Origin: Escherichia coli
GTDB taxonomy: Bacteria; Pseudomonadota; Gammaproteobacteria; Enterobacterales; Enterobacteriaceae
Assembly (NCBI RefSeq): GCF_017348835.2
Contig: NZ_CP071375.1
DNA length: 64,000 nt
Reading direction: 5' to 3' (one strand)
Part shown: positions 36,001 to 39,000 of the stretch, piece after piece
How the letters are laid out: every line of letters begins with the position of its first letter
How positions within the stretch are numbered: the first letter of the stretch is position 1
Program-made: the position numbers

Positions 36001-39000
36001 ACCAACCGACTGCCAGGTATACCGTGGTCAGCGCGGTCGTATGGAAATTCGTATTGATGTTCAGGGTGTTAGCTGCCACGGTTCTGCGCCAGAACGCGGT
36101 GACAACGCCATTTTCAAAATGGGTCCGATTCTTGGCGAATTACAAGAACTCTCCCAACGTCTGGGTTATGACGAATTCCTCGGCAAAGGCACCCTCACCG
36201 TTTCTGAAATCTTCTTCACATCCCCAAGCCGTTGCGCTGTAGCAGATAGCTGCGCCGTCTCTATTGACCGCCGTCTGACTTGGGGCGAAACCTGGGAAGG
36301 CGCGCTGGACGAAATCCGCGCCCTGCCTGCAGTACAGAAAGCTAACGCGGTTGTTTCTATGTACAACTACGACCGTCCGTCCTGGACTGGCCTGGTTTAC
36401 CCAACCGAATGCTACTTCCCGACCTGGAAAGTGGAAGAAGATCACTTCACCGTTAAAGCACTGGTGAATGCCTACGAAGGGCTGTTTGGCAAAGCGCCGG
36501 TTGTTGATAAGTGGACCTTCTCAACTAACGGCGTATCTATCATGGGCCGTCACGGCATTCCGGTGATCGGCTTTGGCCCGGGTAAAGAACCTGAAGCGCA
36601 TGCACCTAACGAAAAAACCTGGAAATCTCACCTGGTGACCTGTGCCGCGATGTACGCTGCAATCCCGTTAAGCTGGCTGGCAACCGAATAATTACTCTTC
36701 ACTTATTCCCCTCCGGTTCGCCGGAGGGTTTTTGGAGTTTGCTATGCGCGTATTGATCAAAAACGGCACTGTCGTTAACGCAGATGGACAAGCCAAACAG
36801 GATTTGCTGATTGAAAGCGGGATTGTTCGCCAGTTGGGCAACAATATTTCGCCGCAGCTCCCGTATGAAGAAATTGATGCCACTGGCTGTTACGTTTTCC
36901 CTGGCGGCGTGGATGTCCATACGCATTTCAATATTGATGTCGGCATCGCGCGCAGTTGTGATGATTTTTTTACCGGTACCCGCGCAGCTGCGTGTGGCGG
37001 TACAACAACCATTATTGACCATATGGGATTTGGCCCAAACGGCTGTCGGTTACGCCATCAACTGGAGGTTTATCGTGGTTATGCCGCCCATAAAGCGGTC
37101 ATCGATTACAGCTTTCACGGTGTGATCCAGCACATTAATCACGCAATCCTCGACGAAATCCCGATGATGGTCGAGGAAGGACTGAGCAGTTTTAAACTCT
37201 ATTTAACCTATCAATACAAACTCAACGATGACGAGGTTTTGCAGGCATTACGCCGTCTGCATGAGTCCGGCGCGCTGACCACCGTGCACCCGGAAAATGA
37301 TGCTGCTATCGCCAGCAAGCGGGCGGAATTTATCGCCGCAGGGTTAATCGCACCGCGCTATCATGCCTTGAGTCGCCCTCTGGAATGCGAAGCGGAAGCC
37401 ATCGCCCGCATGATTAACCTGGCACAAATTGCCGGTAACGCCCCGCTCTATATCGTGCACCTGTCTAACGGCTTAGGTCTGGATTATCTGCGTATTGCCC
37501 GTGCGAATCACCAGCCAGTCTGGGTTGAAACCTGCCCACAATATCTCCTGTTGGACGAACGCAGCTACGATACAGAAGATGGCATGAAGTTCATTCTTAG
37601 CCCACCGCTGCGTAACGTACGCGAGCAGGACAAACTGTGGTGTGGCATCAGCGATGGTGCGATTGACGTGGTAGCGACCGATCACTGCACGTTCTCGATG
37701 GCTCAACGCCTGCAAATTTCTAAAGGCGATTTCAGTCGCTGCCCAAATGGCTTACCCGGTGTGGAAAACCGCATGCAGTTACTGTTTTCCAGTGGCGTGA
37801 TGACGGGACGTATAACACCGGAACGCTTTGTTGAATTAACCAGCGCAATGCCCGCCAGGCTGTTTGGCCTGTGGCCGCAAAAAGGATTATTAGCGCCCGG
37901 TTCCGATGGCGACGTGGTGATTATCGACCCACGTCAGAGCCAACAAATTCAGCATCGCCATCTCCACGACAACGCCGACTACTCGCCATGGGAGGGTTTT
38001 ACCTGTCAGGGCGCGATTGTCAGAACCTTATCCCGTGGTGAAACGATTTTCTGTGACGGCACCTTTACAGGCAAAGCCGGGCGAGGTCGTTTCCTGCGAC
38101 GCAAACCGTTTGTCCCTCCCGTGCTCTAACCACTGCCAGGGATCTATACACAATCAAGAATGATGAGTGAGGAAAAATGAGTAAGAAAATTGTTCTCGCC
38201 CTGGGCGGGAATGCACTGGGCGATGACCTGGCCGGGCAAATGAAAGCGGTAAAAATTACTTCTCAGGCAATTGTTGATTTAATTGCCCAGGGACATGAAG
38301 TTATCGTCACTCATGGTAACGGGCCGCAGGTGGGCATGATTAACCAGGCCTTTGAAGCTGCCGCAAAAACTGAAGCGCACTCGCCAATGCTGCCGATGTC
38401 TGTCTGTGTTGCATTAAGCCAGGGTTATATTGGTTACGATCTACAAAACGCTTTAAGAGAAGAACTGCTTTCTCGGGGCATTAATAAACCTGTAGCAACG
38501 CTGGTTACTCAGGTCGAAGTCGACGCTAACGATCCGGCATTCCTCAACCCGACCAAGCCGATCGGTTCGTTCTTTACCGAGCAAGAAGCAGAGCAACTGA
38601 CAAAACAGGGTTACACTCTGAAAGAAGATGCTGGTCGCGGCTATCGCCGTGTTGTTGCCTCGCCAAAACCGGTTGATATCATTGAAAAAGAAACGGTTAA
38701 AGCTCTGGTAGATGCAGGTCAGGTGGTGATCACCGTTGGCGGTGGTGGTATCCCTGTTATTCGTGAAGGTAACCATCTGCGTGGTGCCAGCGCGGTTATC
38801 GATAAAGACTGGGCCAGCGCCCGTTTAGCAGAAATGATTGATGCCGATATGCTGATCATTCTGACTGCGGTAGAAAAAGTGGCCATTAACTTCGGTAAAG
38901 AGAATGAACAGTGGCTCGATCGCCTGTCATTAAGTGATGCTGAACGCTTTATCGAAGAAGGTCATTTTGCGAAAGGTTCTATGCTGCCTAAAGTGGAAGC

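What the first reader, a model, noticed from the sequence alone, without database searches (positions are those of the whole stretch)
36709..36743. Strong terminator hairpin placed directly against the hyuA ribosome-binding site
CCCTCCGG-TTCG-CCGGAGGG followed by TTTTT ends 1-2 nt before the GGAG and ATG (36744) of hyuA. Either hyuA and yqeA are transcribed separately from ygeWXY with a promoter inside or upstream of the hairpin, or the hairpin is an attenuator that also occludes the RBS on readthrough transcripts.
Basis: seen in the sequence. Interest (0 to 1): 0.35.

Follow-up and report, generated by a model that had tools for sequence, protein, structure and literature searches.

The report
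Conserved hairpin between ygeY and hyuA
The hairpin is real and is a conserved RNA stem-loop between two genes of the E. coli uric-acid-degradation operon; it most likely lowers downstream-gene mRNA relative to upstream-gene mRNA, which is an ordinary kind of operon fine-tuning.

Summary
The window is E. coli chromosome. An 8-bp G+C-rich hairpin (36709-36728, loop TTCG) is followed by T5 (36729-33). GGAG (36734-37) and the hyuA ATG (36744) come next, all inside the 52-nt ygeY-hyuA spacer.

The feature is far beyond chance. It is invariant in stem, T-run and SD in every E. coli allele sampled from 5,163 genomes.

Comparison with 80 loci from other species changes the reading:
- A stem-loop at this position is kept across more than 20 genera, with compensatory base changes.
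- The T-run is not kept. Only 8 of 51 orthologous hairpins score as terminators.
- The two upstream spacers (ygeW-ygeX, ygeX-ygeY) carry conserved hairpins of their own, without T-runs.

No promoter motif precedes hyuA, and hyuA is co-regulated with ygeWXY. The hairpin does not contain the SD, and SD sequestration is not supported.

Best reading: it is an intercistronic boundary hairpin. It would act as a 3'-exonuclease barrier, and in E. coli also as a leaky intrinsic terminator, lowering hyuA-yqeA mRNA relative to ygeWXY. This is a new member of a known kind. No transcript-end data exist for this locus, so the mechanism is inferred.

The parts
32871..32886 (+). Sigma-54-type promoter match TGGCACACTTATTGTT upstream of ygeW. 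It is the likely source of the transcript that crosses the hairpin.
   Evidence: One mismatch to TGGCAC-N5-TTGCW. The literature places a sigma-54 promoter upstream of ygeW.
32978..34168 (+). ygeW (carbamoyltransferase), first cistron
   Evidence: ORF list and RefSeq annotation of the identical sequence.
34175..34196 (+). Hairpin in the ygeW-ygeX spacer: GGGCCGATC/AGCT/GGTCGGCCC, tail TCTATTTCC.
   Evidence: Orthologous spacers keep a hairpin of -12 kcal/mol or better in 36 of 40, with compensatory changes visible.
34226..35422 (+). ygeX / dpaL (diaminopropionate ammonia-lyase)
35438..35460 (+). Hairpin in the ygeX-ygeY spacer: TGCTCCCTG/CAAAA/CGGGGAGTA, followed by A-rich sequence and not by a T-run.
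   Evidence: It is kept in many Enterobacteriaceae but absent where the spacer is 19-33 nt.
35480..36691 (+). ygeY (M20-family hydrolase); stop codon TAA at 36689-36691
36692..36708 (+). Pyrimidine-rich 17-nt leader TTACTCTTCACTTATTC between the stop codon and the stem. It is predicted to pair weakly with the SD in several registers.
36709..36728 (+). The hairpin: CCCTCCGG / TTCG / CCGGAGGG (8 bp, 7 G-C pairs).
   Evidence: Covariation. The covariance model R1 hits only this site in the window.
36729..36733 (+). T5 run. It could be a terminator U-tract or a U-rich linker to the SD.
   Evidence: It is invariant in the sampled E. coli alleles but not conserved in most other genera.
36734..36737 (+). 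hyuA Shine-Dalgarno GGAG, 6 nt before the ATG.
   Evidence: GGAG or GAGG sits at the same place in orthologues.
36744..38129 (+). hyuA (D-phenylhydantoinase)
38177..39109 (+). yqeA / arcC (carbamate kinase), last cistron. The hyuA-yqeA spacer has no hairpin.

Best explanation
The hairpin is a conserved intercistronic RNA stem-loop of a single ygeW-ygeX-ygeY-hyuA-yqeA transcript. That transcript starts at the sigma-54/YgeV promoter upstream of ygeW.

Its conserved job is to mark a boundary on the mRNA. Any RNA 3' end that arrives at it is capped by a stable G+C-rich stem, which stalls 3'-to-5' exonucleases. Such ends could arise by endonuclease cleavage downstream followed by trimming or, in E. 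coli, by RNA polymerase release at the U5 run. As a result ygeWXY message outlasts and outnumbers hyuA-yqeA message.

In Escherichia, and in a few other genera (Hafnia, Morganella), the stem is followed by a U-run. There it should additionally act as a leaky Rho-independent terminator. hyuA and yqeA are expressed from the fraction of polymerases that read through, using the SD that lies just beyond the U-run and stays largely accessible.

Shown here: the structure, its conservation with compensatory changes, the non-conservation of the U-run, the sister hairpins, the absence of a promoter motif, and the accessible SD.

Inferred: that 3' ends form here, that read-through occurs, and that the outcome is a proximal-greater-than-distal mRNA ratio.
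For: 1. Canonical anatomy in E. coli. The classical terminator discriminant gives +29, the second highest of 51 orthologues (the formula was recalled from memory).
2. Structural conservation. In 15 genera 92.7% of cells are paired and 7 of 10 pairs show changes on both sides. None of 500 shuffles reached the observed paired percentage or covariation score, and slid controls gave 38-70% paired. In 28 distinct rows 93.6% are paired, with 46 double-change cells against 14.8 in shuffles. 35 of 41 orthologous spacers fold better than 95% of their own shuffles, median z -3.0.
3. The U-run is not what is conserved. At least 5 T in the first 6 nt occurs in 5 of 51, and 8 of 51 score as terminators. 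Examples are TCT in Raoultella and Kluyvera, CT in Yokenella and AACAT in Citrobacter R56.
4. Two more conserved hairpins lie in the upstream spacers, neither with a T-run as a rule, and none lies in hyuA-yqeA. This is the pattern described for consecutive protective hairpins in menBCE and for malE-malF (PMC5927463).
5. Read-through. There is no promoter motif before hyuA. hyuA is in the YgeV iModulon with ygeWXY. The five-gene order is fixed across Enterobacterales, Aeromonas and further taxa.
6. The stem starts 17 nt after the stop codon, so a terminating ribosome should not melt it (the ribosome footprint is from general knowledge).
7. In the E. coli population the stem, T5 and SD are unchanged in all alleles sampled from 5,163 genomes. 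Only the loop varies (TTCG, TTTG, TTCA, TTTA).
Against: No transcript 3'-end, coverage or half-life data exist for this locus in anything I could read. The operon is silent in the published E. coli Term-seq conditions, and the supplements hold no ygeY/hyuA entry. No paper links ygeY with a terminator.

The U-run is short (5) and followed by GGAG, so termination could be very weak.

The stem-to-ATG distance is much more constant (12-16 nt, sd 1.1) than the stop-to-stem distance (8-17 nt, sd 2.7) in 23 short spacers. An insertion in Escherichia sp. E1V33 landed between the stop codon and the hairpin and left hairpin plus SD together. Both facts tie the hairpin to the hyuA RBS rather than to the ygeY 3' end, and so favour a translational role.

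Klebsiella indica has lost the 5' arm, so the element is dispensable in at least one lineage.

The databases' 'ygeWXY' operon call would also fit an efficient terminator.
Confidence: 0.5

Rival explanations
1. Translation-side element. The hairpin belongs to the hyuA ribosome-binding region. It locks up the CCCUCC and GGAGGG stretches, which would otherwise pair with or compete with the true SD. It keeps the SD single-stranded, and together with the U-rich linker it offers a standby or S1-binding platform. It may also stop ribosomes that finished ygeY from sliding on to hyuA. On this reading the T5 is a U-rich translational enhancer, not a terminator tract.
For: The stem-to-ATG distance is nearly fixed at 12-16 nt, whereas the stop-to-stem distance varies from 8 to 17 nt. 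The linker is pyrimidine/U-rich in most genera even where it is too short for termination. Real leaders leave the SD more open than shuffled leaders in 25 of 30 orthologues, p = 1e-4, although the sequences are not independent. Deleting the hairpin in silico raises the SD opening cost from 2.5 to 3.3 kcal/mol. The insertion in L008 spared the hairpin-SD unit.
Against: The predicted effect on SD accessibility is small, under 1 kcal/mol. The ygeW-ygeX hairpin sits next to the stop codon and about 29 nt from the next ATG, so adjacency to the RBS is not a general rule in this operon. In a 44-53-nt spacer that holds a 20-28-nt hairpin, both flanks are necessarily short. No experiment is available.
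Confidence: 0.22
2. Efficient terminator that ends a ygeWXY transcription unit. hyuA-yqeA would then be transcribed on their own from an unrecognised promoter within the end of ygeY or the spacer.
For: The literature and knowledge bases speak of a 'ygeWXY operon'. The hairpin plus T5 scores as a good terminator. yqeA is not listed in the YgeV module.
Against: No sigma-70-like or sigma-54-like motif lies within several hundred bases upstream of hyuA. hyuA co-varies with ygeWXY across the RNA-seq compendium. In most genera the same hairpin has no U-run and cannot terminate, yet the five-gene order and the short spacers persist. The 52-nt spacer leaves no room for an activator-dependent promoter.
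Confidence: 0.1
3. 5'-end protector. RNase E cuts in the AU/CU-rich leader (36692-36708). The hairpin then sits at the new 5' end of a hyuA-yqeA message and shields it, in the manner of papBA, making the distal genes more stable rather than less.
For: Structures immediately downstream of RNase E sites protect distal operon segments in several E. coli operons (PMC5927463). The leader is unstructured and U-rich. The hairpin stays with hyuA after the insertion in L008.
Against: No cleavage data are available. The leader contains only partial matches to the RN|WUU motif (my reading). The reading does not explain the hairpins next to stop codons in the ygeW-ygeX spacer.
Confidence: 0.1
4. Specific recognition site (protein or sRNA), or source of a 3'-UTR-derived small RNA ending at this hairpin.
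For: The basal CCC:GGG pairs and one inner C:G pair are invariant in 28 distinct rows. That is more sequence conservation than pairing alone requires.
Against: There is no Rfam family. The invariance can be shared ancestry. U5 is short for Hfq-type 3' ends. The upper stem and the loop vary freely.
Confidence: 0.05

Closest known systems
Protective 3' stem-loops of differentially decaying operons (malE-malF intercistronic hairpin; consecutive hairpins after menB and menC in menBCE), as reviewed and extended by Dar and Sorek 2018 (PMC5927463)
   Same: A stable stem-loop at a cistron boundary inside a polycistronic mRNA. It is conserved among enterobacteria, several occur in series in one operon, and no U-tract is needed.
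   Different: Here nothing is measured: no mapped 3' end and no half-lives. Most of the published protective structures lie inside the downstream coding sequence, on average 107 nt in, whereas these lie in the spacers. The malE-malF element is a REP repeat, while this hairpin is single-copy.
Leaky intra-operon Rho-independent terminators that set the ratio of proximal to distal genes. Textbook cases recalled from memory: the attenuator between rplL and rpoB, and the terminator between rpsU and dnaG.
   Same: In E. coli it is a G+C-rich stem, a 4-nt loop and a U-run. It lies in a short spacer between co-oriented genes of one pathway, with downstream genes that have no promoter of their own.
   Different: The U-run is only 5 nt and runs straight into the SD. 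The U-run is absent in most orthologues that keep the hairpin. Termination has not been measured.
5'-terminal or RBS-proximal stabiliser hairpins (papBA processing product; the ompA 5' stem-loop, from memory) and standby-site models of translation initiation
   Same: A stable hairpin a few nucleotides upstream of an accessible SD, kept at a nearly constant distance from the start codon.
   Different: No processing site is known. The hairpin is internal to a polycistronic RNA and not at a primary 5' end.

Membership tests
Rho-independent (intrinsic) terminator | G+C-rich stem-loop of about 5-12 bp with a short loop | tested here: met
   8 bp, 7 G-C pairs, 4-nt loop, -15.6 kcal/mol.
Rho-independent (intrinsic) terminator | U-rich tract immediately 3' of the stem | tested here: met
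   U5 directly after the stem, then GGAG. The tract is short but the discriminant score is +29. This is borderline in length.
Rho-independent (intrinsic) terminator | Hairpin able to form behind the last ribosome (far enough from the stop codon) | tested here: met
   The stem starts 17 nt after the TAA. The ribosome footprint is taken from general knowledge.
Rho-independent (intrinsic) terminator | U-tract retained together with the hairpin in orthologous loci, as expected if termination is the selected function | tested here: not met
   Only 5 of 51 have at least 5 T in the first 6 nt, and 8 of 51 score above 0. The hairpin itself is kept in 40 of 42 spacers of 40-90 nt.
Rho-independent (intrinsic) terminator | RNA 3' ends 7-9 nt after the stem, and a drop in downstream coverage | not testable with these tools
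   No entry for ygeY or hyuA in the Term-seq supplements held. Another paper's supplements are not held.
Protective 3' hairpin of a differentially decaying operon | Stable structure at the boundary between operon segments | tested here: met
Protective 3' hairpin of a differentially decaying operon | Structure conserved in related species | tested here: met
   Covariation. Fold-versus-shuffle test.
Protective 3' hairpin of a differentially decaying operon | Stable processed 3' end at the base of the structure, and a longer half-life for the upstream segment | not testable with these tools
   This needs rifampicin decay RNA-seq and Term-seq under inducing conditions.
Transcription attenuator or riboswitch with alternative folds | A mutually exclusive antiterminator structure, or a known sensor domain or leader peptide | tested here: not met
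   Hairpin pair probability is 0.93-1.0 in 70-, 151- and 291-nt contexts. There is no Rfam match at E of 1 or below in 30000-42000.
SD-sequestering translational operator | SD buried in a stable helix | tested here: not met
   The SD lies outside the stem and the opening cost is 1.7-2.5 kcal/mol. Leaders do not sequester the SD more than shuffled leaders do; they sequester it less.
REP/BIME or other dispersed repeat | Many copies per genome | tested here: not met
   One place per genome in 5,163 E. coli genomes. There is a single covariance-model hit in the window.

The most novel reading that the evidence does not exclude
The three spacer hairpins of ygeW-ygeX-ygeY-hyuA may together form a conserved, U-tract-independent partitioning code for this operon. 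On this reading they programme stepwise mRNA decay, and the last one also positions or insulates the hyuA ribosome-binding site. Enzyme stoichiometry of the newly described anaerobic urate pathway would then be set after transcription in the same way from Escherichia to Aeromonas, and E. coli would have secondarily converted the last hairpin into a terminator.
Probability: 0.15. Interest if true: 0.5.

Novelty: new member of a known kind. Interest (0 to 1): 0.3.

Why it matters
The ygeW-yqeA genes encode the lower half of the anaerobic uric-acid (2,8-dioxopurine) pathway of gut bacteria. That pathway was worked out only in 2022-2025 and is now being engineered into probiotic E. coli to lower urate. 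Knowledge bases split the cluster into 'ygeWXY' and unassigned hyuA and yqeA.

Three practical consequences follow if a structured boundary, partly a terminator in E. coli, sits between ygeY and hyuA and hyuA has no promoter of its own:
- It explains the database split.
- It predicts that placing a strong promoter before ygeW will raise YgeW/X/Y more than HyuA/YqeA.
- It points to a simple edit for balancing the pathway: remove the stem or the U-run.

Beyond that, it is one more example of a common design and not a new principle.

Tried and rejected
- Rfam scan of 30000-42000 at E of 1 or below: nothing at the hairpin.
- Separate promoter: the sigma-70 consensus scan and a sigma-54 pattern with up to 2 mismatches found nothing usable before hyuA.
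- Dispersed-repeat idea: rejected, because the element is single-copy.
- SD sequestration by an outer helix (leader ACUCU with GGAGU). It appears in the MFE of the spacer and in many orthologues. It is weak, absent from the centroid, and no better than leader shuffles; real leaders are on average more SD-friendly. Rejected as a selected feature.
- A plain MAFFT alignment of whole spacers was not in structural register and gave no consensus structure. I re-aligned trimmed hairpins and used a covariance model.
- An exhaustive per-shuffle hairpin search timed out. I replaced it with MFE against shuffles.
- Literature search for direct evidence: Term-seq supplements have no entry for these genes, one supplement set is not held, and no paper pairs ygeY with 'terminator'. 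The RNA-seq of the promoter-insertion strain is available only as a figure legend. Older papers give no transcript mapping.
- In-frame TTG at 36732, preceded by the GGAGG of the 3' arm, as an alternative hyuA start. Not pursued further: that SD is locked in the stem and the arrangement is not conserved in orthologues.
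Full report
**What is there.** The window is E. coli chromosome. The 801 bases around the finding are 100% identical to several complete genomes and are annotated ygeY | hyuA. The neighbourhood is xdhABC, ygeV (opposite strand), then ygeW, ygeX/dpaL, ygeY, hyuA and yqeA/arcC on the + strand, then yqeB and yqeC on the opposite strand.

The 52-nt ygeY-hyuA spacer reads TTACTCTTCACTTATTC-CCCTCCGG-TTCG-CCGGAGGG-TTTTT-GGAG-TTTGCT-ATG. The stem begins 17 nt after the ygeY stop codon and ends 15 nt before the hyuA ATG.

**Is it more than chance?** Yes.
- The hairpin is worth -15.6 kcal/mol.
- Its pairs have probability 0.93-1.0 in contexts of 70 to 291 nt.
- The spacer folds better than 298 of 300 dinucleotide shuffles.
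- A strict stem-plus-T5 pattern occurs twice in the whole 64-kb window and never in 20 shuffles.
- The generic terminator scan of the tool is uninformative, with 18 found against 14 expected.

**Variation within E. coli.** The 81 bases around the hairpin occur once per genome in 5,163 of 5,426 complete genomes, always at 95% identity or more. I read ten alleles chosen across the range, including the most divergent class. Their flanking coding sequence differs by up to about 6-10%. In all of them the stem, the T5 and the SD are unchanged. The only differences are in the loop (TTCG, TTTG, TTCA, TTTA), in the leader, and one extra C just 5' of the stem. This fits selection on the stem but is weak evidence on its own.

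**Other species.** A scan of one genome per species with a HyuA profile returned 80 loci. The order ygeW-ygeX-ygeY-hyuA-yqeA is kept through Enterobacterales and Aeromonas. Vibrionaceae keep the order but lack yqeA at that position.

Where the ygeY-hyuA spacer is short (44-60 nt), almost every genus has a G+C-rich stem-loop at the same place, with different stem sequences. Four tests support this:
- An alignment of 15 genera, trimmed to the hairpin, gives 92.7% paired cells. Seven of ten pairs have changes on both sides, no shuffle out of 500 reached the observed paired percentage or covariation score, and slid controls gave 38-70% paired.
- A covariance model built from that alignment hits only 36705-36732 in the window and finds the orthologous hairpin in some 30 loci, including Aeromonas.
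- On 28 distinct rows, 93.6% of cells pair, with 46 double-change cells against 14.8 in shuffles.
- 35 of 41 spacers fold better than 95% of their own shuffles.

**The U-run is not conserved.** After the stem one finds the following:
- TTTTT in E. coli
- TTTTCT in Escherichia sp. E1V33
- TTTCT in Citrobacter MGH106
- AACAT in Citrobacter R56
- TCT in Raoultella and Kluyvera
- CT in Yokenella
- T5-6 again in Hafnia, Morganella and some Serratia-like genomes

With the classical hairpin-plus-T discriminant (formula recalled from memory), E. coli scores +29, the second highest. Only 8 of 51 orthologous hairpins score above zero. So what has been kept over this phylogenetic range is the stem-loop, not a terminator.

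**The hairpin is one of a series.** In E. coli the ygeW-ygeX spacer (57 nt) holds a 9-bp stem at 34175-34196. The ygeX-ygeY spacer (57 nt) holds a 9-bp stem at 35438-35460, followed by A-rich sequence. The hyuA-yqeA spacer has nothing.

Across the other genomes, counting spacers of 40-90 nt:

| Spacer | Spacers with a hairpin of -12 kcal/mol or better |
|---|---|
| ygeW-ygeX | 36 of 40 |
| ygeX-ygeY | 14 of 33 |
| ygeY-hyuA | 40 of 42 |
| hyuA-yqeA | 3 of 16 |

Several hyuA-yqeA spacers are only 12 nt and fall outside this count. The ygeW-ygeX stems show obvious compensatory series: GCCGATC/GGTCGGC, GCCGGCC/GGCCGGC, GCTGGCC/GGCCAGC and TCTGGCC/GGCCAGA. T-runs after these two hairpins are rare.

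**Promoter question.** The only good sigma-54 match in the region is TGGCACACTTATTGTT at 32871-32886, upstream of ygeW. No match with 2 mismatches or fewer lies on the + strand between 34332 and 37699. No sigma-70-like site lies near the end of ygeY or in the spacer.

The literature places sigma-54 promoters upstream of xdhABC and 'ygeWXY', with YgeV as the presumed activator, and lists hyuA in the same co-expression module as ygeW, ygeX and ygeY. One group treats ygeW-dpaL-ygeY-hydA-arcC as one operon. Read-through from the ygeW promoter is therefore the economical explanation of hyuA expression. It has not been shown directly.

**RBS occlusion.** The SD is not part of the hairpin. The MFE of the spacer adds a 5-bp outer helix between ACUCU (36694-36698) and GGAGU (36734-36738), but the centroid lacks it. 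The SD is predicted to pair in several weak registers with the CU-rich leader or the end of ygeY, and opening GGAG costs 1.7-2.5 kcal/mol. Removing the hairpin in silico raises that cost to 3.3 kcal/mol.

In 30 orthologues the real leader leaves the SD more accessible than shuffled versions of the same leader in 25 cases (Wilcoxon p = 1e-4). The sequences are related, so this is indicative only. There is no sign that SD sequestration is a selected property. If anything the reverse holds.

**Mechanism.** I commit to the following. The hairpin is an intercistronic boundary element on one long transcript.

Its conserved action does not depend on a U-tract. It most plausibly blocks 3'-to-5' exonucleases so that RNA ending at its base persists. 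This is the mechanism established for malE-malF and found in series in menBCE (PMC5927463).

In E. coli the U5 run gives it, in addition, the properties of a leaky intrinsic terminator. Both actions push in the same direction: more ygeWXY message than hyuA-yqeA message.

The main rival is a translation-side role. It rests on the nearly constant stem-to-ATG distance (12-16 nt, sd 1.1, against 8-17 nt, sd 2.7, for stop-to-stem). It also rests on a natural insertion of about 175 nt in Escherichia sp. E1V33 that separated the hairpin from ygeY but not from the hyuA SD. The two readings are not exclusive.

Klebsiella indica has lost the 5' arm through another insertion, so the element is not indispensable.

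**What is missing.** There are no 3'-end, 5'-end, coverage or half-life data for this locus in anything I could read. The genes are silent under standard laboratory conditions. Every functional statement above is inference from sequence and comparison.

**Verdict.** It is wrong on RBS occlusion, and a separate promoter is unlikely. The element is a new, undescribed member of a well-known kind, either an intercistronic protective hairpin or a leaky internal terminator. Interest is modest. Its practical value lies in annotating and engineering the urate-degradation operon.

Noticed in passing
window 34175-34196 and 35438-35460: Two further strong hairpins lie in the ygeW-ygeX and ygeX-ygeY spacers, each 57 nt long. 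The first has a T-rich tail (TCTATTTCC). The second is followed by A-rich sequence. Both are conserved with compensatory changes in other genera.
   Followed up: partly
window 39110-39329 (yqeA-yqeB spacer): A 26-nt hairpin, GGCCGGGTG(G/A)GTAATACCATCCGGCC, occurs twice (39116-39141 and 39296-39321). The two copies flank REP-like palindromes, and the whole 220-nt spacer folds at -94.6 kcal/mol. Rfam ES036 (CssrF) matches 39207-39249 just below its gathering score (36.3 against 37.6 bits), and naRNA4 matches weakly at 39167-39203 on the minus strand.
   Followed up: no
L008 3774-3945 (Escherichia sp. E1V33): An insertion of about 175 nt lies between the ygeY stop codon and the hairpin. It contains its own palindrome, CCCCTCTCCCCTTCGGGGAGAGGG, and looks like a small mobile or repeated element. 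The hairpin and the hyuA SD stay intact downstream of it.
   Followed up: partly
L012 3744-4000 (Klebsiella indica): The ygeY-hyuA spacer is 257 nt long. Only the loop and 3' arm of the hairpin (TTCGCCGGAGG) remain, and the 5' arm has been replaced.
   Followed up: partly
window 36732-36734: An in-frame TTG lies 12 nt upstream of the hyuA ATG (ORF 36732..38129), 4 nt after the GGAGG in the 3' arm of the hairpin. It would be usable only if the stem were melted. The arrangement is not conserved in other genera.
   Followed up: partly
window 55210-55233: This is the only other site in the window that meets the strict hairpin-plus-T-run pattern: TCTCCGCGCCTTTCAGCGCGGAGA followed by TTTCTTTCAG, on the + strand.
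   Followed up: no
L059-L081 (Photobacterium, Vibrio): The ygeY-hyuA spacers are 170-436 nt long in these genomes and yqeA does not follow hyuA. The start of hyuA is uncertain in several of them, because the match begins at residue 3 with no clear ATG. There may be an extra small gene or a different start.
   Followed up: no
L023 (Citrobacter amalonaticus AUH_CA_2023_1): ygeY matches in two pieces in different frames, and the hyuA match begins only at residue 42. This is either frameshifts in a long-read assembly or pseudogenes. The hairpin is still present (CCCCCCGG TTTA CCGGGGGG).
   Followed up: no
literature, YgeV iModulon gene list: hyuA is listed with ygeW/X/Y in the YgeV co-expression module, but yqeA, the last gene of the same string, is not. 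The reason is unknown.
   Followed up: no
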